Below, in pieces: positions 3,172 through 26,028 of a stretch of 27,320 bases of DNA. The position numbers and the translations under genes were made by a program. A model generated the notes under the pieces. The model was not told where the DNA came from. It worked only from the letters and a program-made list of their open reading frames with translations, and made no database searches. The stretch comes from a virus (Duplodnaviria; Caudoviricetes): the IMG/VR virus record IMGVR_UViG_3300025647_000214, positions 1-27,320 of that record; one strand, 5' to 3'. The stretch's first letter is position 1. Each line of letters starts with the position of its first letter.

Positions 3172-6100
3172 GTGTAGGTCAAGGAATAGGCGCTGCTGTT
3201 GGTGGTGTCGTTGCCGCTGTTTATGGTGGCCCTGCTGGTGCAAACCTTTTCGCTACACTACAAGGCGCCGCATACGGAGCCGCTATCGGTGGTTTTTTGG
3301 ATCCACCTCCCGGCCCCGATTTACAGGGTTTAAAAATCGACGATGCCTCAGCTCAAACGTCGGAGTATGGAGCCCCCATTAATCGCGGTAATGGCAAGTT
3401 TCCTGCGGTCGGGAGTGTCGTTTGGGTTGAGGGGGGGGAAAGAAAAATTGTCCCTGTTAAAACCGATAATGAGGGCGGTAAAGGCGGCGATGCTGGCACA
3501 ACGAAGAACGACGAAGCATTCTGGACAGGGGCTATTATCCTGGCTGACCACCCCGTCGATGGCATAGGTAGGCTATGGTTTGGGCCTAATTTAGTGTCAA
3601 ACAGCTTAACCGAAGATTTGGCAACGGCTGCTGCCTCGGGTGAAATATTTCCTACGCTCTCGCTTCAGGCCGACACCGGCTTATTAAAAGCCAGCCTGAA
3701 CACTAACCCCACTGGTGGGACGGTGCGACTGTACCCGGGAATGGATGATCAGCCAGTTGACCCCCGTTACGAAGCAGACAGGGGGGCTGGCAGAGCTTCA
3801 GCCTGGCGTGGTTACACAGTCTTATTCGTGTACGACATGCCGTTGAAGGATTACGGCAATAGTATCCCTGGCATGGAGGTCAAGGCTGAATTAATTGTTG
3901 GTGATGGCAGCGCCGATCCTGTGCTTTTGCATGAAGAAGAAAGAGACCGCCCAGGCGCTGCCATTTACATTAATGCGCCACACTTAAGTAATGGTACGGC
4001 GTATGTTTATGCAGTAGAACATACCACCGACCCAGTAGACGGCTGGTCGTATGCTATGGGGCTAGAGACCCAGCCTTTTCTTCTCTCATCAGAAAACGAT
4101 GGCCCCGGTGCTTTTGTGCCAAGAGCTGCCGAGGGGTGGGCTGATGTAGAGGGGTTCCCGCCAGACGCTCGCCCTCTCACAACAGCGCAAATTGACCTTC
4201 TCCGTGGCGGCATTACCTTTAATTGCTTTAGTAGTTTTGGCCGATATTACCTAAAGGATGGAACCTATTATTATTTCGACCTTGTTTCCCCCTGGAAAAT
4301 CTATGTCGGATTGAACAGCGTGGTTTATGGATCAGACATTGCTCTTATTGCCGTCGATGATTCTGGTAATATCTATGCCGTCAGTGAAACCCTAGTTAAG
4401 AAATACGATAGCGACCTTAATTTGTTAAGTAGCATGGCGGTCTCTTTCGGCACTGACATCTTTGGTAACGCCTCGCGGGTTATGTTTGATGACTCTACTG
4501 GGCTGTTATGGGTGCAAACCAGAACGGTGGCGGCACCTAACGACCATTATCACCCCATTTTATTTGAAGAGGGTTATCAGGCCGACCCTGTAGTTGTCCC
4601 TATTGGCGATTTTTCAGGCGCTTACGCCAGTCTTAATTTTAGTATTCGGGGAAATCTTCTTACGCGGTTTCGGTATATCGCGGGATCAACCTTATCAGGA
4701 AATGTACAAAGCTGGCGACTCCCGACCCCTAATGGCGGCGGCCAATCCCTCGCCGCAGTCGTCAGAGAAAGAATGGAGGCCTCCTCTTTAATTGAGCCGT
4801 CAGATATTGACGTTACGTTGCTGACTGACACGGTGAGAGGCTTTAAAACAGCGGGCCTTAAGCCTATTCGCACAGCGATAGAGACCTTGATGGCGGGTTA
4901 TCACTTTGACGTTGTAGACTCAGGGTATCAATTAAGATGTGTGGCTCGTGGTCAGTCTTCCGTGATGACCATTGATTACGAAGACTTGGATTGTAGACCG
5001 GCTGGTTCTGCCCCAAGCCCTGCATTATCAACAACATTTGAGATGGCAAAGCAGCTACCCAAACGGGTTGATATTGGCTTTCTCGATGCTGATCGCAATT
5101 ACAATAAGAACGTTCAGCCGTCTATTGAGCGATTAGCCTCGCAAGCGGTGAGTATTGAATCTTATGACCTCGCCATTGTTTTTACTGTGGACGAAGCAGC
5201 GCAACTGGCTAACCATGAGATTGATCGCAAATGGACAGAGCGACAACGGTTTAATACCTTTACCTTGCCTCAAACATACCAAGCACTAGAGTCTGCTGAC
5301 GTTATTACCATTCCCGCGCCTGAAGCTACTTATGAAATAAAATTGACGGAAGTAAATCATTTAGCCGATGGCCGTGTGCAATGCCAGGGTGTGGTGAATG
5401 ATGCCGCTATTCATGTTCAAAACGCGGTAGGCGGTCAAGGTGTTCTCGGTGATACCGTCGTGAAATATGCGGGCGCGTCCATTATGCATTTATTGGATAT
5501 TCCTTTAATTAGGGATGAAGACGACAAGCCCGGTTTTGCCGGAGCGTTAAGCGGTAAGACTTCAAGCTGGCCGGGCGGGTCAATTACGCGATCCGTCGAT
5601 AGTGGTCAGACGTGGAAGTCTGTCCAGAGCTTTAGAGGCCCGGTCACGGCGGGTATTTGTAGGGGTTCTTTACCTGTTAACGATGGCGCTGTGATTGATC
5701 GAGTCAACACATTAACTGTAGATTTTTACAGTAGTGATATGCTCATATCCTCGATCACCCAAGAGCAAATGTTAACGGGTATGAATTGGGCCGCCTATGG
5801 TGTTCCTGGCCGCATGGAATTAATCCAGTTTGCCAACGCCACATTAAATGCAGATGGATCGTATACCCTTGATACATTTGTGCGGGGGGCTAAAGGCACA
5901 GAGCAATATACCGGCACCCACGTTGATGGTGATGTGTTTGTGTTTCTCAGCGACGCAGATGCCGCCTTTATTGCGGCCAACATCTCTGACATCGGGGCAG
6001 AGAGGCTCTATAAAGGATTAACGTCTGGCAAGAATATTGACTCCGTACAAGAGACAGCTTTCACCTATTTAGGCGTGAATAAAAAGCCTCTTTCTCCTGT

Positions 6101-6410: not shown

Positions 6411-6781
6411 GCACAAGTACCTTTTTAGGGATGACACTACTGGCAAATGGGCTGGCTAATTATGTGCTGGCCAATGAGTATTTCGATACATTAGAGAAAG
6501 CATCTTCAGGCCGGATCACGGTAGACTTCACCTCAGATGCAGACCTAACGCTAACGGCCGATCAAGGGTTCCACAAAGTGCTCGCGATTACAGATTCAAC
6601 CGTAGCATTAACCACGGGGCGTGACGTTATCTTTCCCACTAAAGGCCCAGAGCGAATCATCAAGAACTCAACAGCCCAAACGCTCACCCTTAAAATAACA
6701 GGGCAAACCGGCGTAGCAATTTTAGCCTCGACAGTAGGTCGTTATTATTATGATGGGACTGATATTGTTGCGGCTCCTTAG
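6407..6781 (+). CDS. Small tail-associated beta-rich protein (124 aa)
   Basis: ATGA coupling to the tail-tip stop; Thr-rich 'IIKNSTAQTLTLK...G.GV.I...YYDGTDIV'. Confidence 0.6.
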   Translation: MSTSTFLGMTLLANGLANYVLANEYFDTLEKASSGRITVDFTSDADLTLTADQGFHKVLAITDSTVALTTGRDVIFPTKGPERIIKNSTAQTLTLKITGQTGVAILASTVGRYYYDGTDIVAAP

Positions 6782-6993
6782 TTATCTCTGGGTTAAGGGT
6801 TAAAACTCAAGCATGGTTGCTAGGCGTATATCGCGTGGCACCAGCCTTGATAGAGACAGGCAACCACCATCTTCTTGGTACCAAACTTTATTGCTACACC
6901 AGTACACCTTGGCCCATCCCTGCTTAGCGTCGTAGTGGCACCAGAACCTATAATATAAATCCATGACCGGTTATCTCTGGGTTAAGGGTTAAA
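6781..6993. repeat. Perfect 24-bp direct repeat GTTATCTCTGGGTTAAGGGTTAAA (6781-6804 and 6970-6993)
   Basis: Two identical copies read directly; they flank a small ORF. Confidence 0.95.
6800..6964 (-). CDS. Hypothetical 54-aa aromatic-rich protein (MDLYYRFWCHYDAKQG...LATMLEF)
   Basis: Manually translated; it fills the space between the two 24-bp repeats and its TAA lies in the left repeat. Confidence 0.55.
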   Translation of the reverse strand: MDLYYRFWCHYDAKQGWAKVYWCSNKVWYQEDGGCLSLSRLVPRDIRLATMLEF

Positions 6994-7125
6994 GGTAGTG
7001 GGTAGAACCGCAATGCTTATTCCGCTTACTTTTCATTTCTGGCAAAGACCCTTTCAGAGCTTCAACATGAATTGAGTTATCAATCGGCATAGACATACTT
7101 GCCAGTAAGTTGTCAATTCGGTCAA
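6989..7125 (-). pseudogene. 5'-truncated paralog of the 8310-8525 cassette gene
   Basis: Reads DRIDNLLASMSMPIDNSIHVEALKGSLPEMK...; 7056-7125 is identical to 8392-8461. Confidence 0.7.
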
Positions 7126-7334
7126 ATGGTGTGTTCGCCACCTTTGTAGCCGGTGAAGGTTGCACCTAGGGCACTCTTCGCATGTTCTAGCATTTCTCCA
7201 AAGGTCACGTTTTCTTTTGGCGCGAATGCAATTTCATCATAATATCCACGATAGCTGTCAGGTTCCCCGAACCCGTGAGGCACGGTTAACTCAGGGTTTT
7301 GTTGCTCTAGCCACTTAATCAAATCTTCAAGCAT
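7122..7334 (-). pseudogene. Small phage protein, probably C-terminally truncated
   Basis: Good RBS (AAGGAGAG); 'GFGEPDSYRGYYDEIAF.P...TFTGYKGG'; stop falls exactly at the edge of the 70-bp duplicated segment. Confidence 0.55.
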
Positions 7335-7360: not shown

Positions 7361-7408
7361 CACTAACAACGCAAAGCACGGGATAAACCCGTGTTCGCAG
7401 GGTTATGG
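7361..7408 (+). repeat. attC site A1 (48 bp, very short)
   Basis: CACTAAC AACGC AAAGCACG GGATAAACC CGTGTTC GCAGG GTTATGG. Confidence 0.75.
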
Positions 7409-7552
7409 CTCAAACCTTTCAAAGTCCTGCGCCATCTTTCCAAATTTGCCAGTTGCAATAGTGTAATAATGCTTTCCTGCATAGTGTTGCAGCCATCGCA
7501 GTTTCCTTGCAATTCGTCGGTGTGGTGAAAAATAATCAAGCAGTTTTTGCAT
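7403..7552 (-). CDS. Hypothetical 49-aa cassette protein
   Basis: GAGGA RBS before ATG at 7552; TAA inside the A1 R' box. Confidence 0.6.
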   Translation of the reverse strand: MQKLLDYFSPHRRIARKLRWLQHYAGKHYYTIATGKFGKMAQDFERFEP

Positions 7553-7847
7553 TACGGTAATCCTCTTTTGCTTTGCTTCTTTTGCAAACTGGGCAATAGC
7601 CTTTTTTAGTGTTCCTGATTTTGCATCCGCATTTTCTACAAGGCACTGAATTGTAGTATTCCTCGCCAATGATTCTGGCGGTTTCTGCATCCATGTTTAT
7701 TGGGTCGCGGACGGGATGTGTCAATGCGGTTTCAATATTCCAGCCAGAGTTTAATCTCCGCGCTAACGTTTGCCGCTTCATTCTATATTCGCGCGCCCAT
7801 TCACAAAGCAGCATCTCCCTTTCATCAAAATAAATTAGTCGTCTCAT
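7536..7847 (-). CDS. Protein resembling the DNA-binding tail of phage HNH proteins plus a Cys (Zn) motif
   Basis: 'EWAREYRMKRQTLARRLNSGWNIETALTHP' and CxxC...CxxC; no HNH catalytic motif seen. Confidence 0.6.
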   Translation of the reverse strand: MRRLIYFDEREMLLCEWAREYRMKRQTLARRLNSGWNIETALTHPVRDPINMDAETARIIGEEYYNSVPCRKCGCKIRNTKKGYCPVCKRSKAKEDYRNAKTA

Positions 7848-7856
7848 AGTAAAAAG

Positions 7857-7925
7857 CCATAACAACACGCTGCACTGGACTCACTACGCTGGCGCTTCGT
7901 TCGCGCAGTGAGCTTAGGGTTATAC
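7857..7925 (+). repeat. attC site A2 (69 bp)
   Basis: CCATAAC AACAC GCT[G]CACT...AGTGAGC TTAGG GTTATAC; L''/L' pair with one extra base. Confidence 0.92.
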
Positions 7926-8213
7926 AGCCAAGGCGGCTTCAATCAATTCCAAGACTTTGCCGTCTGCCTCTTTCCTGTCGCAATCTTCTACGCAGTCATA
8001 TTCATCTAGCTCACCGCTAATAACCCCTGCTTTTATCAGCGGCCTGTAAACGTCGTACTCCCACCCGCTATTGCCAAATGGTCGCTTTCCGCTGAAACAT
8101 TCCCCTTCTTTCCAGAGTTCTGTTAGTAGTAGTTTGAAATATCCTGCTATTGTAAGGTCTTTGTCAAAATCGCTACTTTCAATCTTCAGTTTCAATATTT
8201 CTTTTGTTTCCAT
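7920..8213 (-). CDS. Conserved-looking phage hypothetical protein (cassette)
   Basis: GAGGTGA RBS; 'LWKEGECFSGKRPFGNSGWEYD'; TAA in the A2 R' box. Confidence 0.8.
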   Translation of the reverse strand: METKEILKLKIESSDFDKDLTIAGYFKLLLTELWKEGECFSGKRPFGNSGWEYDVYRPLIKAGVISGELDEYDCVEDCDRKEADGKVLELIEAALAV

Positions 8214-8228
8214 AACTCACCTCAAAAT

Positions 8229-8315
8229 GTATAACCAGTCGCTTCAGTGGAAGCCGAGAACGTCCGGTTTTCAATAGTCACTCAGTGGCGGCTCCACTGA
8301 GCTAATTCGTTATAT
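8229..8315 (+). repeat. attC site A3 (87 bp)
   Basis: GTATAAC CAGTC GCT[T]CAGTGGA...TCCACTGAGC TAATTC GTTATAT. Confidence 0.9.
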
Positions 8316-8525
8316 GCCCCACACATCCACACCGCCCAGCTCAAAGTAAGCCTGTATTAGCGGACCTTTCATCTCCGGTAATGCCTCTTTTAGAGCTTCA
8401 ACATGAATTGAGTTATCAATCGGCATAGACATACTTGCCAGTAAGTTGTCAATTCGGTCAACTTGCAGTGCAATGTCTTCAAGCGCGCATTCTTTGTTTT
8501 CTTCGAGTGTTCCGCCGTAGTTCAT
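8310..8525 (-). CDS. Hypothetical cassette protein (71 aa from ATG 8525)
   Basis: AGGA RBS; TAA in the A3 R' box; partial paralog at 6989-7125. Confidence 0.7.
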   Translation of the reverse strand: MNYGGTLEENKECALEDIALQVDRIDNLLASMSMPIDNSIHVEALKEALPEMKGPLIQAYFELGGVDVWGI

Positions 8526-8552
8526 AGTGGTTTTCCTATTTAAATTGGTTTT

Positions 8553-8610
8553 GCATATATAATTCATTATTTATAAAACTCCGCTAAGTTCGGTTAATAA
8601 CGTGTTATAT
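8553..8610 (+). repeat. Degenerate, AT-rich attC-like site A4
   Basis: GCATATA(T) where GCATATAAC is expected; R' GTTATAT intact and complementary to the A5 R''. Confidence 0.55.
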
Positions 8611-8799
8611 TTCATTGCCTTTAAATTCTGATTTAAGCAGCCTTACAGCAAAGTCCAGCGCTTTAATCATGTCCTTCGGTGTATCCCCTTCTAATTCGAT
8701 TCTTTGGTGTCGATCATTATCCCAAGCAATGTGGATAGCCTCTTTACAACCAATATCGGCCAAGTCTCGTTCAATCCAGATCCTTTTCAGTTTTGCCAT
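8605..8799 (-). CDS. Hypothetical cassette protein (64 aa)
   Basis: GAGGTGA RBS; TAA in the A4 R' box. Confidence 0.75.
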   Translation of the reverse strand: MAKLKRIWIERDLADIGCKEAIHIAWDNDRHQRIELEGDTPKDMIKALDFAVRLLKSEFKGNEI

Positions 8800-8813
8800 A
8801 AATCACCTCAAAA

Positions 8814-8886
8814 ATATAACAAGCGCATTAACGCGGACACTCATTCCGCTGCGCTCCATTCGTTCCGGTTATGCTGGTCGTTATGA
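8814..8886 (+). repeat. attC site A5 (73 bp)
   Basis: ATATAAC AAGC GCAT[T]AAC[G]CGGA...TCCGGTTATGC TGGTC GTTATGA; two extrahelical bases. Confidence 0.92.
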
Positions 8887-9081
8887 CTCAAGCCGTTCTT
8901 TAACCCGAAACCATTCCGCAAGCTGCTCCTTGTTGTACCGCCTTGCGTTGTCATTAAGTGGGCCACCAATACAATAAATTTGCCCGAGCGCCCTGTCTAT
9001 CCTGCCCTGCAACTCAATTGTCAGCAGTTTCAATTCGGCAATTTCTTTTGCCTGCCGCGCTATCAGTTCTGCATCCGTCAT
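8881..9081 (-). CDS. Hypothetical cassette protein (66 aa, 'CIGGPLNDN' motif)
   Basis: ATG lies in the A6 R'' box, RBS in the A6 L'' box, TAA in the A5 R' box. Confidence 0.8.
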   Translation of the reverse strand: MTDAELIARQAKEIAELKLLTIELQGRIDRALGQIYCIGGPLNDNARRYNKEQLAEWFRVKERLES

Positions 9082-9137
9082 AACAGTTTCCTCAATTTTG
9101 ACTCCGCTTCGCTACGCAAATTAGGTAGCGGTTAGTG
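9078..9137 (+). repeat. attC site A6 (60 bp)
   Basis: TCATAAC AGTTT CCT[C]AATT...AATTAGG TAGCG GTTAGTG. Confidence 0.88.
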
Positions 9138-9371
9138 TGCCCACCAATCCCCTTCATAGGGTGGCCAGCCCTCCTCATCAAGCACAATCCCAGCTTGTTC
9201 ATAGTGCCCGCATCGACAATATTGCTGCGCCGTTTTTAGTCCAACCAAACCAGACACCTCCCAGTGCCCGCTCTCCATTGTGTCCTGTACCCACCACCGC
9301 ACACGAAACAGATCAGGCACACTAACTTTTTCGCCTTCTGCTGGTTCAGTTTGTTCGTTCACGTTTGTCAT
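9132..9371 (-). CDS. Hypothetical cassette protein (79 aa)
   Basis: GAGGA RBS; TAA in the A6 R' box; N-terminus encoded within degenerate site A7. Confidence 0.7.
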   Translation of the reverse strand: MTNVNEQTEPAEGEKVSVPDLFRVRWWVQDTMESGHWEVSGLVGLKTAQQYCRCGHYEQAGIVLDEEGWPPYEGDWWAH

Positions 9372-9430
9372 GGTTTCAATTCCTCATTACCGTTAGAAAG
9401 GTAAATTACCTCTGAATCGCAGTGTTAGCT
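9320..9430 (+). repeat. Degenerate attC-like site A7
   Basis: R'' (GGCA)CACTAAC and R' GTTAGCT both match the neighbouring cores, but L boxes are not clearly paired. Confidence 0.5.
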
Positions 9431-9754
9431 GTTTTCTGCTTTGTACAGCTCATAGCAGCTAGATTTTGTCCAATAATAAATGCCATCAACTTGCGTGTAG
9501 CCATGAGCACCTTCTGGGGCCAAAAAGTCTGATGATCTCACTCTAAACCCGGCCTTGTTTTGCTTTATTTCTGGGTCAAGCTCCATGGGCCCAAGGTTTC
9601 CCCACTCCTCACAATGCAGTCTAACCGGGCTTTGCTTCTCTTTCGGCAGCCAGGTTTCTCCGCCCAATATATATCTAATACCCTTTGGCGGCTGTGGCTC
9701 AATCACAGCTAACAAGTCGCTCAACACGGACTCACTACAATTCGTTTCACTCAT
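9425..9754 (-). CDS. Hypothetical cassette protein (109 aa)
   Basis: RBS, ATG and the first ~16 codons lie inside A8; TAA in the A7 R' box. Confidence 0.75.
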   Translation of the reverse strand: MSETNCSESVLSDLLAVIEPQPPKGIRYILGGETWLPKEKQSPVRLHCEEWGNLGPMELDPEIKQNKAGFRVRSSDFLAPEGAHGYTQVDGIYYWTKSSCYELYKAENS

Positions 9755-9784
9755 TTCCGTTCTCCGGTTAGCTCAGGGTTATGC
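9707..9784 (+). repeat. attC site A8 (78 bp)
   Basis: AGCTAAC AAGTC GCT[C]AAC[A]CGGA...TCCGGTTAGC TCAGG GTTATGC. Confidence 0.92.
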
Positions 9785-9868
9785 CGGTTACGTCTCCGGC
9801 GCAGAATCCGCTCTGCCGTGGCTGTAGGCAACGCGCCCGCTGTGCGGTGCTGGGGTCATCGGCCAACA

Positions 9869-10087
9869 CTACCTGCTAATTCCAATATGGTCATTGGCTT
9901 CGGCCAGGCACGCTCTCCAATGTTTGCGGTCATCAGGGGAGCATGTGCGCAGATTTTCTTCGGCCAACGATTTTCTTTCCACCCAATCAACTGTCGGGGT
10001 TTTCGAGTGCGGGTCTACTGCTTCGCAATAATCCAGACACTCACAATCTGGGTGTATGCATTTGTCTATCATGTCTGTCTCCGGCAT
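9869..10087 (-). CDS. Hypothetical Cys-rich cassette protein (72 aa)
   Basis: ATG in the A9 R'' box; 'CIHPDCECLDYC'. Confidence 0.6.
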   Translation of the reverse strand: MPETDMIDKCIHPDCECLDYCEAVDPHSKTPTVDWVERKSLAEENLRTCSPDDRKHWRACLAEANDHIGISR

Positions 10088-10143
10088 AACAATTCACAGC
10101 ACGCGGACTCCGCTACGCTCCGCCCGTGTGCTCAGGGTTATGC
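10084..10143 (+). repeat. attC site A9 (60 bp)
   Basis: GCATAAC AATTC ACA[G]CACG[C]GG...CCCGTGTGC TCAGG GTTATGC. Confidence 0.88.
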
Positions 10144-10374
10144 GCTCTCCTGGCTAACCTTTATCGTGTATTCCAGAGTACCATCGGGCCTTCGTATCTC
10201 AATTGCCTTACCCGTCTTCTCACCAAAATGAACTGCATGTTCCGCAACAGCAACCAGCGCTTCAATCGTCACATCCTGTTTGTTCGCTCCCCATGTTCGA
10301 CCGTCTTTCAAAACTGTTCCTACAAAAATAGTTCCGGTGAGCGGGCTTGTTGCTACGTGTAAATTTCTGTTCAT
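10138..10374 (-). CDS. Small conserved phage protein ('SPLTGTIF.G...K.DVT')
   Basis: Motif common in phage early regions; TAA in the A9 R' box. Confidence 0.75.
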   Translation of the reverse strand: MNRNLHVATSPLTGTIFVGTVLKDGRTWGANKQDVTIEALVAVAEHAVHFGEKTGKAIEIRRPDGTLEYTIKVSQESA

Positions 10375-13543: not shown

Positions 13544-13585
13544 ATATTAGTTTAGCTAATTATATTAGTCAATAGTTTTACTAAT
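13544..13585 (-). promoter_or_regulatory. PL promoter with two operators (OL)
   Basis: TTGACT-17bp-TAATAT on the minus strand; operators ATTAGTTTAGCTAAT (13546-13560) and AATAGTTTTACTAAT (13571-13585). Confidence 0.85.
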
Positions 13586-13647
13586 AATTATTTTAATGGG
13601 TTGGTGGTAGAGTTGAAGCTGCACTGATAGGCAAAGAGGGTCGATGG

Positions 13648-13800
13648 ATGATAAGGAAATATTTGTTGTTAGTGCTGGCGGTTTCTTTCCCATGTGTGGG
13701 GGAGGAGGCTGATTTGTTGCATAGAGGGCGCTGGAGAATTAACCAGGCAATCCAAGGTCTGCGTTACGCCCATTTCTCCACCAAGGCTCTCTTGCGATAG
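13648..13800 (+). pseudogene. N-terminal remnant of a secreted protein convergent on cI
   Basis: GAGGG RBS; MIRKYLLLVLAVSFPCVGEEAD signal-peptide-like start, running into cI antisense at about 13755. Confidence 0.45.
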
Positions 13801-13899
13801 ACCGGGATCGGACTTTTTGGCCGCGAGGTAGTGGCGCTTAATAAAAGCCCCTTCGCGTTTTTTCTCTTCTGTGGTCGTGCCACGCTTAGTTGTCGTCAT
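13669..13899 (-). pseudogene. cI: Truncated lambda CI-like repressor
   Basis: MTTTKRGTTTEEKKREGAFIKRHYLAAKKSDPGLSQESLGGEMGVTQ resembles the lambda CI N-terminus; similarity stops at the recognition helix; no S24 domain. Confidence 0.8.
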
Positions 13900-13909
13900 G
13901 TCTCTCATT

Positions 13910-13976
13910 ATTAGCCAACCTAATATACTATTCAATTAGCAAAACTATTGACGACCTTAATTAGTTAAACTAATAT
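13910..13976 (+). promoter_or_regulatory. OR region: three 15-bp operators and PR
   Basis: ATTAG-N5-CTAAT/CTATT at 13910, 13935 and 13960 (25-bp period); PR TTGACG-17bp-TAATAT (13948-13976). Confidence 0.88.
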
Positions 13977-14281: not shown

Positions 14282-14789
14282 AGTTTTTTAACAATTGGAT
14301 AGATAGATTAATTGGGTTTTATCTCATGAACTCCGCTCCAGTCGAGAGTAGAAAGTAGGGGTTGAAGCCCGCTCATTAGTGCGTCAATGGAGATTAGATA
14401 TGACATCTGAACTTGACCAACAAATAAGTTTAAAAGCACTTCTCGATTATCGGGGACCATGGAAACTGAGACATGACTTACCGGAAGGTGTCGGCTTGGC
14501 CCCGTTAGCTCATGAATCGCTAAATTCGGGTCTTGTGACCACTGCGCGGCGAGTGTTAAGGCCTGTTCAAGGATCAGTCCTAGTGCCTCTGGATTAACAA
14601 GGCTTCCCGAAATGTTTTTTTTCGTGTCAGCAACCATCATTACTTTCACTTTAGGGTTGTCGGTTGCCTCAAATACAAAATCAGTCATGCCGCAGACTTC
14701 AATCTGTTTAGTCACGATGTATCTCCTTATATCTATGTGGAGAGTAAGTGTTACCAACCATTATCTATCTGTCCAGTTGTTAAAAAACT
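14282..14789. repeat. 27-bp inverted repeats (14282-14308 and 14763-14789, 2 mismatches) flanking an antisense gene
   Basis: ATCTATCTaTCCAaTTGTTAAAAAACT (reverse complement of left copy) versus ATCTATCTgTCCAgTTGTTAAAAAACT. Confidence 0.85.
14308..14757 (-). CDS. Hypothetical moron-like protein, antisense to the PR operon (start uncertain, possibly 14688)
   Basis: Long ORF filling the space between the inverted repeats. Confidence 0.6.
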   Translation of the reverse strand: MVTLTLHIDIRRYIVTKQIEVCGMTDFVFEATDNPKVKVMMVADTKKNISGSLVNPEALGLILEQALTLAAQWSQDPNLAIHELTGPSRHLPVSHVSVSMVPDNREVLLNLFVGQVQMSYLISIDALMSGLQPLLSTLDWSGVHEIKPN

Positions 14790-21400: not shown

Positions 21401-22036
21401 ATGTCAATAGCTGCTATTCACCTCCATGGATATAACGTTGAAGATTACAGAAACAGTTCCGGCCAGATAGACCAAGCCTTTAAGAATGCAGGCATAGACT
21501 CTCGTGTTCTGGTTTATCACGCCGATAATGTGCGCGAAGCCAGAGAGATGAACGCTGACACAGCACACAGGCTATCAACACTGATTCACTATTTTCAAGA
21601 GAGGGGCCACACCGTCATTGTGACTGCCCATTCTAACGGCAATACCGTTATGCGGCTGTGCTACGACCTTTATCAAACTAGTCCCGATATCGCGGTGTGT
21701 ATTCAGCCCGCTTTACCTTCAGCCATGAACCCAGCACCAGATGCCAAGCATGTCGCTGTTTACTGGAATCCAGAAGATAGGGTGGTGAAGCTAGGAAAAT
21801 TTTTAACCTGGATTACTGGACTGTTTTCCTCTAAGTGGGTAGCGGAACGAAATTGGGGCCAAATGGGAGCAACAGGATATGTGGGAAGCGATAAAAATGT
21901 GGACAACATTAACACGCTGGACGCTCACCACCCCCGTAGAGCTGGTGGCCATAGCGGTATATTTGATCAGCGGGTTGCGGGTTACTGGATGAGCCTTATC
22001 ACGAAAGATGCTTTCGAGAGGGCCGCCCAGTTATGA
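21401..22036 (+). CDS. Alpha/beta hydrolase
   Basis: 'HLHGYN' oxyanion motif, AHSNG nucleophile elbow, 'NPEDRVV' Asp, 'GHS' His. Confidence 0.75.
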   Translation: MSIAAIHLHGYNVEDYRNSSGQIDQAFKNAGIDSRVLVYHADNVREAREMNADTAHRLSTLIHYFQERGHTVIVTAHSNGNTVMRLCYDLYQTSPDIAVCIQPALPSAMNPAPDAKHVAVYWNPEDRVVKLGKFLTWITGLFSSKWVAERNWGQMGATGYVGSDKNVDNINTLDAHHPRRAGGHSGIFDQRVAGYWMSLITKDAFERAAQL

Positions 22037-24540
22037 GGCTAATTTTTACCTGCTTGTTACTCCTGTCATTTGCTGTGTCTGCCGAGGTAGAGCAGTCTTG
22101 GCCTAACCTCATTATTGCTGACGAGGGTGGCGTGCCTATTGACGGCGTTCCGGGGTCTACAACGCGGGTGAACGCACTTGAGAAGGTGTTGAACCTTCCC
22201 TATGGGACTTACAAAGTTATCCGGCCTGACGCAACTATCACAACGTCAGAAGATGTGGTCATTCCACCAGTTGTCGAACCACCAGTTGTTGAGCCGCCTA
22301 TAGAGCCGCCTATAGAGCCGCCAGCAGAGCCGCCTATTGTTACACCAACAGATGATATTTCAGTGGTTTACAGCCGTGTTCCCCGCACTGTTGGGCCTCA
22401 TACCGTTGCCACTAAAACGGGCGAGTTGGTTTTAAACAACGCCGAAGTGTGGGATGTATTACCCGAGGTTGCTACCCAGTTCTACGGCTTTAATGCGCCC
22501 GGTCAGTTGATGTTGCAGCATTCAGATGACAGTGAAGAATTACTATACGACTGCTTTGATAAAGCCCGACCCTGTGTGCCGTTTGATGCTATGCCATCAC
22601 TGGATGGTAAACACATAGCCTTTGCTGTGTACAGTGCCGACAACCTTGTGAACGCGTGGAGCAATGGGGTTACCTTACCCAACGTTCAATTGGGCAGTCA
22701 GAATGCCGACTCCCGCATTTATGTTATTAACGTTGAAACAAAAGAATTAATCGCTTGGCCTCATACGCCTGGGGATAGAGATACCAGCCCTGTCTGGTTG
22801 CCTGATGGTCGGCTCATGTTTACCAGCACACGCAATGGGCAATGGCGACCTTGGTTAAACAAAATTACACCGATGGCCAAGCAAGACCCCCGGTTGTTTA
22901 CGGCCTTGCCCGATGGCTCGGATGTAGTGGATATAAGCCCACACGAGGTGGGTGGGGCCATGCACCCCTTTGTATTCTCCAATGGGCGTGTTGGATATAA
23001 CTCATTGTGGTATAGCCACAACCTGACCTATGTTGGCAATAATGGCAGTATTAATTGGCCTACCACATTAAATAATATGTGGATGATGGCTGATATTCTC
23101 CAAGATGGATCAGATTATAAAGCCCTGTTGGGCGGTCATAAAAACGCCTATCGAGATTCCAGAGGCAGAACCAAAACCCAGAAAGCCCTGCATTTTATTG
23201 GGCAGAGAGAGAATGGGGATGCTTGCATAGGTAGTTATTACCGAGCCAACAATCATGGATTAGGTGATATAGCTTGTTTCCCTTTCGAGCCTGCCGGTGT
23301 AGAAGGCCCAGCCCCGGACTTTTTGCCTACAGGCATTTACAGTGTCGCGTCTTGGAGTAAGTCAAACGATGAGCCAAGCCGCAAAGATGCTAACGGTGTG
23401 CGTCAGGGCAAGATTGGGTTCCCCGATGGTTACGCGGATAACCAGCTCCTATTAACTGTTTGCAGCGGCTACTGTACCAAGGTGGCGACGTCCCCGCCGT
23501 TTATTGATGGGCAGGTAGGTGATGATATTGGCTCAAGTATAGGGCTGTATAAAACCACAGTGATTCCTAGCGAAAACATGGACGATTTAGAGGTGGTTGT
23601 TGATCACCCTGATTGGCATGAATTCAATGGTCGAATAGTTAGGCCGAGAGTTATTCAAACAGCCGCGCTATCGCAGACAGATGACGGGTCATGTCAAGTG
23701 ATCAGTTCAGATGCCGGGGCCACAGATGCCCACGACTTTAACGACTCATCGTTTAATCGCCGATACCGCGCAATGGCGAATAATGGCGGCGAGATTAAGG
23801 GCTTAGACCATTCAGAGGTTCAAGCTATTCGGTTTTATGAAGTATTGCCGAATCTCGACAAAAGCCCAGACTTTAAGAACTCCATTGGTAACGTTGTGAA
23901 ATTACTGGGGGATGCCCCTTTATTGGCTGACAACTCTTTCAAGGTTGAGCTACCTTGTGATATGCCGTACCTCATGGCCGGTGTGGACAAAGACGGTTTA
24001 ATTATTAAGCGCGATCAATTGCCTCAGTCATTAAGACCGGGTGAAAAGCGAGTGTGTACTGGATGCCATTTGCATGGTGAAGAGGGTAGACCTTACGAGC
24101 AATCATTGGCGTTTGCCGCCCCACCTTTACCGTTGGTTTTGCCTACCGCTGTGCCTACGTTTGAAAAAGACATTAAGCCCATATTCGAGGGTAAATGTGC
24201 TGGGTGCCATACCGTCGATTTGCCGGTTTTAGACTATGACAAACTGGTGTGGGATTACCTGCAAGAGTTTGTGCCAGATGACAGAAAGCATGTAGCAGAA
24301 AACACCACCAACCTGAAGAAAAAATACGGGTTACAGCGCCCTAATACCAGCAAGTATGTGAATACGATGTTTGCGCGTGAAAGCCTGCTGTATTGGAAAG
24401 CTGCGAACAAAAGAACGGACGGCAGGACAGATGACACTTATGCTGATGATATTGATTTTGGTGTAGATCACCCAACAACCCTGACGGCTATAGAGCTAAG
24501 AGCTGTGGGCGAATGGTTAGATGGTGGAGCGGCTAGATAG
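22033..24540 (+). CDS. Secreted HzsA-related beta-propeller protein with two c-type heme motifs
   Basis: Signal peptide, Pro-rich linker, PD40-like 'D.SPVWLPDGRLMFTSTR', 'LRPGEKRVCTGCH', 'KCAGCH'. Confidence 0.7.
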   Translation: MRLIFTCLLLLSFAVSAEVEQSWPNLIIADEGGVPIDGVPGSTTRVNALEKVLNLPYGTYKVIRPDATITTSEDVVIPPVVEPPVVEPPIEPPIEPPAEPPIVTPTDDISVVYSRVPRTVGPHTVATKTGELVLNNAEVWDVLPEVATQFYGFNAPGQLMLQHSDDSEELLYDCFDKARPCVPFDAMPSLDGKHIAFAVYSADNLVNAWSNGVTLPNVQLGSQNADSRIYVINVETKELIAWPHTPGDRDTSPVWLPDGRLMFTSTRNGQWRPWLNKITPMAKQDPRLFTALPDGSDVVDISPHEVGGAMHPFVFSNGRVGYNSLWYSHNLTYVGNNGSINWPTTLNNMWMMADILQDGSDYKALLGGHKNAYRDSRGRTKTQKALHFIGQRENGDACIGSYYRANNHGLGDIACFPFEPAGVEGPAPDFLPTGIYSVASWSKSNDEPSRKDANGVRQGKIGFPDGYADNQLLLTVCSGYCTKVATSPPFIDGQVGDDIGSSIGLYKTTVIPSENMDDLEVVVDHPDWHEFNGRIVRPRVIQTAALSQTDDGSCQVISSDAGATDAHDFNDSSFNRRYRAMANNGGEIKGLDHSEVQAIRFYEVLPNLDKSPDFKNSIGNVVKLLGDAPLLADNSFKVELPCDMPYLMAGVDKDGLIIKRDQLPQSLRPGEKRVCTGCHLHGEEGRPYEQSLAFAAPPLPLVLPTAVPTFEKDIKPIFEGKCAGCHTVDLPVLDYDKLVWDYLQEFVPDDRKHVAENTTNLKKKYGLQRPNTSKYVNTMFARESLLYWKAANKRTDGRTDDTYADDIDFGVDHPTTLTAIELRAVGEWLDGGAAR
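22255..22341 (+). repeat. Pro-rich coding tandem repeats (PPVVE/PPIE)
   Basis: Repeated CCACCAGTTGT and GAGCCGCCTATA units. Confidence 0.85.
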
Positions 24541-26028
24541 ATGGCTATTAGCTTTGATGGGAACAGCTCAAAGGTAGTCATAGACACTAGCACTGTCCTT
24601 GAGAACACAAACCCTTACGCTCTTAATTTCAAGATCCAAATTACTGATACTAATTCAGTGTATGAGCGCTGCCTAAGTTACCGTGAAGGGTCGCGGGGGT
24701 TTATGGTCATCCAAGAGGATGACAAGCTGTTCATCATACCGAACGGAACAAATGCTACTACATGGGGCAGAGACGTAGATACAGGCTCTTGTATCGTTTT
24801 GCTCGGCCTTAGCACTGCTACATGGTACAACGTTACCGTAAACTTCTCTGGTGGCGCAGACAACATTCAATCCAATGCTACTGTCTGGTTAGATGGCGTT
24901 GCGGTTACCGAGGATGGAACGGGTAGCCTGAATGGAGGTAGTGGCGCAGGATATGGTTCTGGTACCGACACCAATACATTACACCTTGGGGCTAGATCTG
25001 CCTCAGGATCAACCATTTCGGTTCCCGGCGATTGTATTCTTGCTGAAGTTACGATGTGGGAAAACCACGCCCTAACTATAGCGGACGCGGTTAGTCTAGC
25101 TGCGGGTAATAGTGGTAGTACTGTTGACGCCGCCAACTTAGCAATCCATTACCAAGGCTTAGATAACACCGATACAACTGAGACAGTTAACAGTAAAACG
25201 GTTACGTTTTATGGCACGGTAGTGGATGCCACCCATCCAACTATGGCGGGTGGTGTTGCAGATATTACTGCAACAGGTGGAATGTCTTTTGGTTCATCAG
25301 CAGGTCTAAACGCAACAGGCAAGCTGGCAGGCTCATCGAGCCTATCATTCGGCTCAAGTGCCGACATTAACGCTACAGGAATATTAGGCGGATCAGCCAG
25401 CCTGTCATTTGGCTCTAGTGCTGGATTAAACGGCATAGGGTCGCTACAGGTGAGCGATTTAATATCCTTTGGATCATCTGCTGATTTAAATGCGGTAGGG
25501 ACACTATCAGGGACAAGCGTTCTCACGTTTAGTGGAACAGGCGCATTAAACGCTGCAGGCACATTAAGTGCTACCAGTTCAATCGCTTTCTCCACAAGTG
25601 CTGAATTATCGACATCCGGCGCTTATGAATTAACGGGAACGGCGACACTCTCTTTCTCTGCTGCTGCCAGCTTAAATGCTACAGGTAAATTAACGGGCAG
25701 TGCGGGATTGGCTTTTGCTGATTCTGCCTCATTAACAGGGGCCGGAACTCTAGCCGCTTCCTCGGTTATCACGTTTGGAAGCTCTGCCGATTTATCCCAA
25801 GCCTCACAAGACGCAATAAGCGCCACTGTAGGGCTGTCGTTTGGCACATCAGCAACATTAAACGCTACAGGCGCTATGACCGCTGTTGGCTCTCTCACGC
25901 TGTCTACATCCGCTGATCTTACACAGCCTGGAATAGCGCCAGCTTATCCCGGACTTGAATACACAATGGGCGGCTCACGCCTTCACTACACCATGAGCGG
26001 AAGCCCGCTTCATTACACCATCAAATAG
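24541..26028 (+). CDS. LamG/ConA-like domain plus ~20-aa Gly/Ser/Ala repeats (fibre/adhesin-like)
   Basis: 'ISFDG...WYNVTV...WLDGV...LHLGAR...AEVTMWENHALT', then about 11 repeats like ATGKLAGSSSLSFGSSADIN. Confidence 0.7.
   Translation: MAISFDGNSSKVVIDTSTVLENTNPYALNFKIQITDTNSVYERCLSYREGSRGFMVIQEDDKLFIIPNGTNATTWGRDVDTGSCIVLLGLSTATWYNVTVNFSGGADNIQSNATVWLDGVAVTEDGTGSLNGGSGAGYGSGTDTNTLHLGARSASGSTISVPGDCILAEVTMWENHALTIADAVSLAAGNSGSTVDAANLAIHYQGLDNTDTTETVNSKTVTFYGTVVDATHPTMAGGVADITATGGMSFGSSAGLNATGKLAGSSSLSFGSSADINATGILGGSASLSFGSSAGLNGIGSLQVSDLISFGSSADLNAVGTLSGTSVLTFSGTGALNAAGTLSATSSIAFSTSAELSTSGAYELTGTATLSFSAAASLNATGKLTGSAGLAFADSASLTGAGTLAASSVITFGSSADLSQASQDAISATVGLSFGTSATLNATGAMTAVGSLTLSTSADLTQPGIAPAYPGLEYTMGGSRLHYTMSGSPLHYTIK

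What the first reader, a model, noticed from the sequence alone, without database searches (positions are those of the whole stretch)
7361..10143. Phage-borne, integrase-less integron cassette array in the early-left operon
Seen: nine attC-like sites, seven with R''-spacer-L''(+extra base)-VTS-L'-spacer-R' anatomy. They bound eight cassettes: 7403-7919, 7920-8309, 8310-8604, 8605-8880, 8881-9131, 9132-9424, 9425-9778 and 9779-10137. The R' of each site is complementary to the R'' of the next site: GTTATGGCT/AGCCATAAC, GTTATACA/TGTATAAC, GTTATATTT/AAATATAAC, GTTATGAC/GTCATAAC, GTTAGTGTGCC/GGCACACTAAC, GTTAGCTGT/ACAGCTAAC, GTTATGCCGG/CCGGCATAAC (A3/A4 partly degenerate). Established: this is the scar left when circular cassettes are inserted at G|TT by an IntI integrase. 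Inference: the phage shuffles its accessory early genes (possible anti-defence or host-takeover genes) by cassette recombination, perhaps borrowing the host IntI. No intI or attI is in the window.
Basis: partly seen in the sequence, partly recalled or inferred. Interest (0 to 1): 0.95.

Follow-up and report, generated by a model that had tools for sequence, protein, structure and literature searches.

The report
Backwards integron cassette array in phage
A freshwater phage carries a row of eight small genes, each packaged between the DNA recombination sites that bacterial integrons use to swap gene cassettes but facing the opposite way to bacterial cassettes, and it likely built this row with an integrase borrowed from its host, which suggests that phages keep their own mirror-image pool of swappable genes.

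Summary
The array is real. A covariance model built from 12 bacterial attC sites ranks seven of the nine sites as its top seven hits in the window; two are decayed. In 7 of 8 cassettes the start is complementary to the cassette's own R'' over 8-11 nt (chance about 0.002 each). Bacterial cassettes in my control are canonical (34 of 42; 2 inverted). Other phage contigs carry the same inverted layout, one with a true IntI and an attI-like site, one complete genome with no tyrosine recombinase. A homologue of cassette 7 sits between different neighbours in two other contigs, with homology ending at the crossover. No integrase is in this 65%-complete contig, no shuffling was seen within this phage, and anti-defence function is unsupported. 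Phage attC clusters are published (Qi 2023); I found no paper noting the inversion, although published phage H101 shows it. This scan has already reported such arrays in at least 24 other genomes. Verdict: new variant of a known kind.

The parts
7361..7408 (+). attC A1 (top strand +), 48 nt; heads the truncated gene 7122-7334
   Evidence: CM 16.0 bits, bottom strand '-'; bottom-strand fold z -4.1
7403..7919 (-). Cassette 1; overlapping ORFs 7536-7847 (weak HNH-family match) and 7403-7690, possibly one frameshifted gene
   Evidence: 9-nt terminal complementarity; phrog_3377 E 2.9e-7; frames
7857..7925 (+). attC A2
   Evidence: CM 26.0 bits
7920..8309 (-). Cassette 2; 97-aa ORF 7920-8213, phrog_15618, common phage gene of unknown function
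   Evidence: 8-nt complementarity; 78 other viral loci of the family show no attC
8229..8315 (+). attC A3
   Evidence: CM 36.9 bits
8310..8604 (-). Cassette 3; ORF 8310-8525 (71 aa, or 85 aa from 8567), unknown function
   Evidence: R'' decayed
8541..8610 (+). Decayed attC A4 (R' GTTATAT intact; R'' and L'' degraded); left limit approximate
   Evidence: no AAC candidate, no CM hit; boundary supported by cassette 4 complementarity
8605..8880 (-). Cassette 4; 64-aa ORF 8605-8799, unknown function
   Evidence: 9-nt complementarity; no family
8814..8886 (+). attC A5; member of an attC family common in bacterial arrays; nearly identical copy with other flanks in co-occurring contigs
   Evidence: CM 28.1 bits; 73 nt with 1 difference in a deeper contig
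8881..9131 (-). Cassette 5; 66-aa ORF 8881-9081, ATG inside R'', GAGG inside L'', stop inside the previous R'
   Evidence: 8-nt complementarity
9078..9137 (+). attC A6
   Evidence: CM 17.9 bits
9132..9424 (-). Cassette 6; 79-aa ORF 9132-9371 starting inside its attC
   Evidence: 11-nt complementarity
9320..9430 (+). Decayed long attC A7 (R'' and R' intact, L'' not matching)
   Evidence: no CM hit
9425..9778 (-). Cassette 7; 109-aa ORF 9425-9754 whose first ~16 residues are encoded by the attC; widespread conserved family of unknown function
   Evidence: 9-nt complementarity; 128 homologues; alignment; homologous inverted cassette in L203 and L207
9707..9784 (+). attC A8
   Evidence: CM 31.8 bits on '-', 13.3 on '+'
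9779..10137 (-). Cassette 8; 67-aa ORF 9869-10072 that stops 90 nt before the boundary; the same frame ends in the boundary TAA, so probably a premature stop
   Evidence: 10-nt complementarity; frames
10084..10143 (+). attC A9
   Evidence: CM 28.5 bits on '-', 8.5 on '+'
10138..10374 (-). DUF7446 / phrog_1578 gene; stop codon in the last G|TTA, no attC of its own here; a full inverted cassette in phage L011
7122..7334 (-). Truncated phrog_12889 gene behind A1 (matches profile positions 13-83 of 126), fused to a fragment of a cassette-3 paralogue
6781..7125 (.). Rearranged left end: 98-nt, 92% copy of 8364-8461 at 7028-7125 whose frame stops at a G|TTA; two 24-nt direct repeats (6781-6804, 6970-6993), each with three GTTA, around a 54-aa ORF (6800-6964) that also stops at a G|TTA; candidate primary insertion site (inference)
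13544..13572 (-). Candidate leftward early promoter (TTGACT-17-TAATAT) inside one of two inverted operator-like repeats; would read all cassette genes
   Evidence: consensus match only (12 found, 11.2 expected); repeats 13544-13604 / 13915-13976

Best explanation
This is an integrase-less array of integron cassettes at the far end of a lambdoid phage's early-left gene block, with every gene written on the attC bottom strand behind its own attC, and it was likely assembled by repeated insertion of circular cassettes at G|TT by an integron integrase likely supplied in trans by the host. Shown: attC anatomy and polarity, terminal complementarity, inverted ORFs, no recombinase in the contig, the same layout in other phages, and one cassette family in different neighbourhoods. 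Inferred: the cassettes were made from ordinary phage early genes; they are read from the phage's leftward promoter rather than from a Pc; with an origin in the O-like gene (lambda rule, recalled) the bottom strands would be the lagging-strand template, the orientation that favours excision. Parts of the array are decaying, so present activity is uncertain.
For: CM from bacterial attC sites: top 7 hits are array sites, bottom strand '-'; the same model picks the published bottom strands of phage TJE1. Complementarity 8-11 nt in 7 of 8 cassettes, as in bacterial cassettes (median 8). Polarity control: gene left of the same attC family in bacterial genomes canonical 58, inverted 3, unclear or at an edge 27 of 88 sites; whole cassettes 34 canonical, 2 inverted, 6 unclear of 42. 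Other viral or metagenome arrays: 15 inverted, 2 canonical, 5 unclear of 22. L203 and L207 share a cassette-7 homologue (85% over 342 nt) that ends at the crossover, between different neighbours. DUF7446 is a full inverted cassette in L011 and has no attC in L012. A phage contig (portal, head, tail genes) has a true IntI (TIGR02249, 401 bits, cut-off 265) beside inverted cassettes, so IntI and this polarity go together. A 100%-complete phage with nine inverted sites and complete phage H101 have no tyrosine recombinase. H101's attC sites lie in front of genes on the bottom strand and were recombined by IntI1, bottom strand better than top (PMC9892861). Lagging-strand rule: PMC5371416. Cassette G+C ranges 0.40-0.56.
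Against: No gain or loss seen within this phage: L001 and L002 are 100% and 99.99% identical where they overlap and four runs from two samples show no joint (contigs hide rare variants). Host and host IntI not identified; contig only 65% complete, so an own recombinase is not excluded. Two of nine sites are decayed, cassettes 1 and 8 look broken, the left end is rearranged. Predicted minimum-energy folds of most linear sites are not the canonical stem and are not more stable than shuffles; two circular forms fold branched. No clear attI. Viral contigs also hold canonical sites: of motif-selected viral contigs with a model-confirmed attC, 5 are inverted and 6 canonical.
Confidence: 0.65

Rival explanations
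1. The array was served by a recombinase of the phage itself (an IntI, or a small non-IntI tyrosine recombinase) that was deleted with the rearranged left end or lies in the unassembled third of the genome; what remains is a frozen relic.
For: G003 has its own IntI exactly at the downstream end of an inverted array, the place where this window shows a deletion junction and repeats. This phage also seems to have lost most of its repressor and has no integrase. Decay of two sites and two ORFs. Earlier scan notes describe non-IntI recombinases beside inverted arrays (unchecked leads).
Against: Complete genomes with inverted sites and no tyrosine recombinase exist (G004, H101). No recombinase remnant at E<=0.001 in the contig. 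The tyrosine recombinase beside the L011 array is an ordinary prophage integrase with its excisionase on the other side of the array.
Confidence: 0.22
2. The block was captured in one piece from a bacterial chromosomal integron by illegitimate recombination or imprecise prophage excision.
For: Published precedent in Vibrio prophages (PMC9892861). A5 belongs to an attC family common in bacterial genomes.
Against: Bacterial arrays are canonical and longer (median 769 nt against 359 here). Identifiable cargo is phage-type: PHROG families, 183 viral stretches encode a relative of cassette 2. All genes follow phage transcription.
Confidence: 0.05
3. The hairpins are not recombination sites but intergenic terminators, RNA-processing sites or conserved boundary sequences for homologous exchange.
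For: They lie between genes of an early operon and supply ribosome-binding sites and start codons; A1 scores as a terminator-like hairpin; folding energies are modest.
Against: They match a bacterial attC model with strand asymmetry; each R'' matches the start of its own cassette 250-520 nt away rather than its own R'; the sites share little sequence with each other; homology of a shared cassette ends at the crossover; no Rfam match.
Confidence: 0.05

Closest known systems
[quoted passage not shown] 2023, PMC9892861, especially Pseudoalteromonas phage PH101/H101
   Same: Several attC sites between short ORFs in a phage, no intI; H101's tested sites resemble A2 and A8 and, by my check, also precede genes on the bottom strand.
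   Different: Nine sites and eight cassettes, against 2-4 predicted sites for the 14 phages of the paper's Table S1 and three in TJE1; uniformly inverted genes, which the parts of the paper I read do not remark on; TJE1 in that paper is canonical.
Classical integron cassette arrays (intI, attI, Pc, attC cassettes; class 1 and sedentary chromosomal integrons)
   Same: attC anatomy, G|TT crossover, terminal complementarity of the same length (median 8-9 nt), one short promoterless gene per cassette, stop codon inside an RYYTAAC box.
   Different: No intI, no clear attI or Pc; gene on the bottom strand and downstream of its attC in reading direction; attC often supplies RBS, ATG and the first residues; cargo is phage-type and about half as long.
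Off-target cassette insertion at attG sites giving SALINs and small CALINs (bioRxiv 10.1101/2022.09.11.507474)
   Same: Offers a route by which a host IntI could seed an array in a replicon without attI (passages read).
   Different: Described for bacterial chromosomes and canonical cassettes; not tested here.

Membership tests
attC site / integron gene cassette | R''-5 nt-L'' with extra base ... L'-5 to 7 nt-R' (G|TTRRRY), asymmetric between strands | tested here: met
   7 of 9 sites hit by a bacterial attC model at 16.0-36.9 bits, opposite strand at most 13.3; 2 decayed
attC site / integron gene cassette | Cassette start complementary to own R'' (circular intermediate) | tested here: met
   8-11 nt in 7 of 8 cassettes; background about 0.002
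attC site / integron gene cassette | Bottom strand folds into a recombinogenic hairpin | tested here: inconclusive
   Box pairing possible for seven sites; minimum-energy folds canonical for some, branched for others, z mostly weak
attC site / integron gene cassette | ORF on the top strand, upstream of its attC (usual bacterial arrangement) | tested here: not met
   All ORFs on the bottom strand; bacterial control 34 of 42 canonical
attC site / integron gene cassette | Recombined by an IntI at G|TT | not testable with these tools
   Shown for similar phage sites in PMC9892861, not for these
attC site / integron gene cassette | Gain or loss of whole units at G|TT among relatives | tested here: inconclusive
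   Met for homologous cassettes in other contigs; not seen among copies of this phage
CALIN | Two or more attC sites within a few kb and no neighbouring intI | tested here: met
Complete integron | intI gene next to the array | tested here: not met
   No TIGR02249 or PF00589 match in the 27.3-kb contig; contig 65% complete, but both flanks of the array are present
Complete integron | attI site and Pc at the 5' end of the array | tested here: inconclusive
   Repeats with stacked GTTA at 6781-6804 and 6970-6993 lie where attI would be; no model of attI was available

The most novel reading that the evidence does not exclude
Phages run a mirror-image cassette system: ordinary phage early genes are turned into cassettes by gaining an attC in front of the start codon, are traded between phages by host or phage IntI, and the reversed polarity acts as a firewall, keeping phage genes silent when they land in a host integron and keeping host anti-phage cassettes silent when they land in the phage array. 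The near-identical attC seen with different genes in one sample, and gene families that are mostly attC-free, would make phages a place where cassette formation can be caught in the act.
Probability: 0.35. Interest if true: 0.85.

Novelty: new variant of a known kind. Interest (0 to 1): 0.62.

Why it matters
Integrons are treated as bacterial devices, and phage-borne attC sites as borrowed bacterial cargo. If phages keep a separate, reversed pool of cassettes made from their own genes, then site-specific cassette exchange is one source of the mosaic of small early genes in phage genomes, and host integrases serve their parasites. How a gene becomes a cassette is an old open question; here gene families exist mostly without attC and occasionally with one, which gives matched pairs to study. 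The inverted polarity makes direct predictions about strand choice, excision rate and silencing that standard conjugation assays can test.

Tried and rejected
Rfam: no match up to E 1. Distant blastn of the array against 50,697 annotated phage records: no match. Relatives found through the exonuclease (L003-L005, 41-81% identical) carry no array. My first pattern scanner was too noisy to stand alone (1.7 background hits per shuffled window at the score of the weaker sites), so I used the covariance model. The viral motif scan was mostly noise (51 of 64 matches without an attC), and three called sites (L055, L056, L058) were dropped because the model did not confirm them. Idea that phage cassettes have longer terminal complementarity than bacterial ones: not supported (means 8.05-8.86 against 7.31, P 0.08). 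RNAalifold on a sequence alignment of the seven sites gave no structure because the variable loops misalign; uninformative. Function of the cargo: PADLOC 0 of 11, Pfam only DUF7446 among the array proteins, ESM Atlas no usable hit for cassettes 2 and 7. No RNA holder listed. Reads laid on the array showed no joints, but only contigs were available. The contigs that share A5 could not be retrieved, and the host was not identified. The idea that the phage lysogenises through attC x attI was considered and left as unsupported, since the repressor gene looks truncated. The integrase beside the L011 array was rejected as the cassette recombinase (ordinary integrase-excisionase pair).
Full report
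Setting. The window is a whole 27,320-base virus record, linear and estimated 65% complete, held in freshwater metagenome runs. It has lambdoid order: tail genes on +, then a leftward block (exonuclease, Gam-like protein, SSB, HNH, then the array), cro, O-like initiator, DnaB-like helicase, NinB, NinG, Q-like and endolysin genes. The array is at the far end of the leftward block, against the last tail gene. The contig has no match to TIGR02249 or PF00589, and two other assemblies of the phage have none to PF00239.

The observation. The reverse complement of each cassette start matches the zone of its own R'' for 9, 8, 0, 9, 8, 11, 9 and 10 nt; 8 or more occurred in about 0.2% of 20,000 random pairings. 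I built a covariance model from 12 attC bottom strands taken from bacterial genomes (3 of the 12 carry the motif from A5 with which the loci were found, 9 are neighbouring sites). With filters off, its seven best hits of 22 in the window are A3, A8, A9, A5, A2, A6 and A1 (36.9 to 16.0 bits); the best elsewhere is 13.9. A4 and A7 are decayed. Folding energy is weak evidence: z is -4.1 for A1, -3.6 for A3 and -1.8 to +0.2 for the other six tested; in circular form A1, A2, A8 and A9 fold with the R boxes paired in one stem, A5 and A6 fold branched.

Polarity. All seven hits put the bottom strand on the window's - strand; the opposite strand scores far lower (13.3 against 31.8, 8.5 against 28.5, 9.0 against 16.0). 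All ORFs are also on the - strand, so each gene lies behind its attC on the bottom strand. An ORF ends with TAA on the complement of the boundary GTTA in 7 of 8 cassettes and in the DUF7446 gene; in cassettes 5, 6 and 7 the start codon lies inside the attC. Two checks fix the polarity. First, in bacterial genomes the same attC family has the gene on the top strand: of 120 loci, 88 distinct sites were called and the left gene was canonical in 58, inverted in 3, unclear in 19 and at an edge in 8; among whole cassettes between two model hits, 34 of 42 were canonical, 2 inverted, 6 unclear (9 further pairs skipped as too far apart or badly bounded). Second, the model picks the same bottom strands that Qi et al. 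list for phage TJE1, whose array is canonical.

Other phages. Among viral contigs found by attC motifs and confirmed by the model, not counting this phage, five carry inverted arrays of short genes (L013, L016, L030, L044, L051) and six carry one or two canonical sites next to longer genes, mostly methyltransferase-like (L014/L049, L019, L025, L067, L071, L079). So inversion is common in phages but not the rule; it goes with phage-type cargo. At cassette level the viral and metagenome loci gave 15 inverted, 2 canonical and 5 unclear of 22 (4 pairs skipped). That set is not blind: three loci were found through this window's genes, two L011 sites came from my scanner, and I left out one opposite-strand hit in L044 and one hit in L203; one of the two canonical calls is the cassette-7 homologue in L207, which the sequence shows to be inverted. 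In published phage H101 the three model hits and the neighbouring annotated genes are all on the same strand, each tested attC in front of a gene: it is inverted too.

Mobility. The cassette-7 protein has 128 homologues. Of 40 non-self loci of the family (31 metagenome, 9 viral, some the same contig), two have attC hits (11 of them rechecked with filters off). In these two, L203 and L207, the gene is an inverted cassette; the two copies are 85% identical over 342 nt, from the R'' arm to the crossover, and have different neighbours on both sides. The DUF7446 gene is a full inverted cassette in L011 (71% identical), next to a phage adenine methyltransferase cassette, and has no attC in L012. The cassette-2 family is an ordinary phage gene: 78 other viral loci (the best 80 of 183 stretches, less this phage and one locus seen before) gave no model hit. 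In the runs that hold this phage, deeper contigs carry A5 almost unchanged (73 nt, one difference) with other flanks on both sides; the left flank reads on the - strand as a ribosome-binding site and ATG, that is another inverted gene. Against present activity: L001 and L002 are 100% and 99.99% identical to the window where they overlap, and no joint skips a cassette in four runs from two samples, though only contigs could be laid.

Which enzyme. G003, a phage by its portal, head and tail genes, has a true IntI (401 bits, cut-off 265) directly downstream of an inverted array; the last cassette ends in a 13-nt complement of its R'', followed by about 70 nt before the intI start, and the first 30 nt of that stretch recur near a second attC in the same contig, as expected of an attI. 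So IntI is found with this polarity. G004 (100% complete, nine sites) and H101 have no tyrosine recombinase, so such arrays also persist without an own enzyme. Qi et al. showed that H101's sites recombine with attI1 through IntI1, bottom strand better than top. A trans-acting, probably host, IntI is the simplest reading here; loss of an own enzyme is the main rival, because the array's attI-side end is rearranged (a truncated gene fused to a cassette-3 paralogue, and two 24-nt repeats) and the ORF at the repressor position breaks off after a helix-turn-helix-like start (resemblance recalled, no family hit).

How it likely works. Shown steps: anatomy, polarity, scars, family-level mobility. Inferred steps: a circular cassette folds on its bottom strand and is inserted at G|TT; because the gene is on the bottom strand, the array reads with the phage's leftward transcript (candidate promoter at 13572-13544 is a consensus match only). 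If the origin lies in the O-like gene as in lambda (recalled), the fork crossing the array has the - strand as lagging template, which raises attC folding and excision (PMC5371416). A canonical array co-oriented with transcription would have the low-excision orientation. A second consequence, untested, is that phage cassettes would be antisense to Pc in a host integron and host cassettes antisense to the phage promoter; since many chromosomal cassettes encode anti-phage systems (bioRxiv 10.1101/2024.07.02.601686, listing only), this could be selected. What the eight genes do is unknown; methyltransferases occur in other inverted arrays but not in this one.

Literature. PMC9892861: I read parts 1-4 of 7 (introduction to conclusion) and part 1 of 2 of the supplement; its figures and the GenBank annotation file on Dryad were not seen and may show the polarity. 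It reports 17 CALINs in 10,705 phage genomes and calls TJE1 and PH101 typical, without remarking on inversion in what I read. Passages only: PMC5371416, 10.1101/2022.09.11.507474, 10.1101/2022.02.06.479319 (its 'reverse orientation' refers to intI), 10.1101/2022.02.28.482270, PMC13492144. Searches of an open-licence library found no paper describing inverted phage cassettes; subscription journals are largely missing. This scan's own notes report inverted arrays in at least 24 other genomes and arrays with non-IntI recombinases; these are unchecked leads. I had noted the inversion before opening them and tested it independently; no look-alike of this stretch was on record.

Verdict. A real CALIN with nine sites, a member of a known kind, but of a reversed, phage-type variant that I could not find described. 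Interest 0.62: the inversion and the IntI-bearing example are notable and testable, while phage CALINs are known, activity in this phage is not shown and the cargo has no function yet.

Noticed in passing
window 13669-13908 (-) and 13544-13976: The ORF at the repressor position starts like a helix-turn-helix protein and breaks off after about 50 residues, between two 61-nt inverted operator-like repeats; with no integrase in the contig, the phage may be a lytic derivative of a temperate one.
   Followed up: partly
window 6781-7125: Two identical 24-nt repeats, each with three stacked GTTA, flank a 54-aa ORF that stops at a G|TTA; the left one starts in the stop codon of the last tail gene. Possibly a duplicated attI-like site.
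   Followed up: partly
L016:121-2865 and L338:7850-8700 (G003): Phage contig with a true IntI, inverted cassettes reading into intI, an attI-like stretch present twice, and a second tyrosine recombinase upstream of a further attC.
   Followed up: partly
L030:4175-4500 (G004): An excisionase-like gene (phrog_66) is itself a cassette in a nine-site inverted array of a complete phage that has no tyrosine recombinase.
   Followed up: partly
L011:4173-8598: An inverted array lies between the excisionase and the integrase gene of a temperate phage, with a tRNA-like stretch beyond.
   Followed up: partly
L049:42-2224 and L067:151-2832: Two phages 99.9% identical to the right of one canonical attC carry different methyltransferase-containing modules to its left: apparent exchange of bacterial-type cassettes at one site.
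   Followed up: partly
P0001, P0002, P0003; L030:2590-2715, 3571-3646: attC arms are translated into short N-terminal extensions of inverted-cassette proteins; such extensions could be used to find inverted cassettes in protein databases.
   Followed up: no
L203:3730-3966: The attC in front of the cassette-7 homologue has a variable loop of about 200 nt holding a 61-codon ORF, while its outer arms resemble the 68-nt attC in L207.
   Followed up: no
L044:2045-2144: One attC in the opposite polarity inside an otherwise inverted array.
   Followed up: no
window 14308-14757 (-) and 21401-26028 (+): A 149-aa antisense ORF between cro and the O-like gene, and a block of large genes after the endolysin (211-aa hydrolase-like, 835-aa protein with CxxCH motifs, 495-aa repeat protein) not examined.
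   Followed up: no
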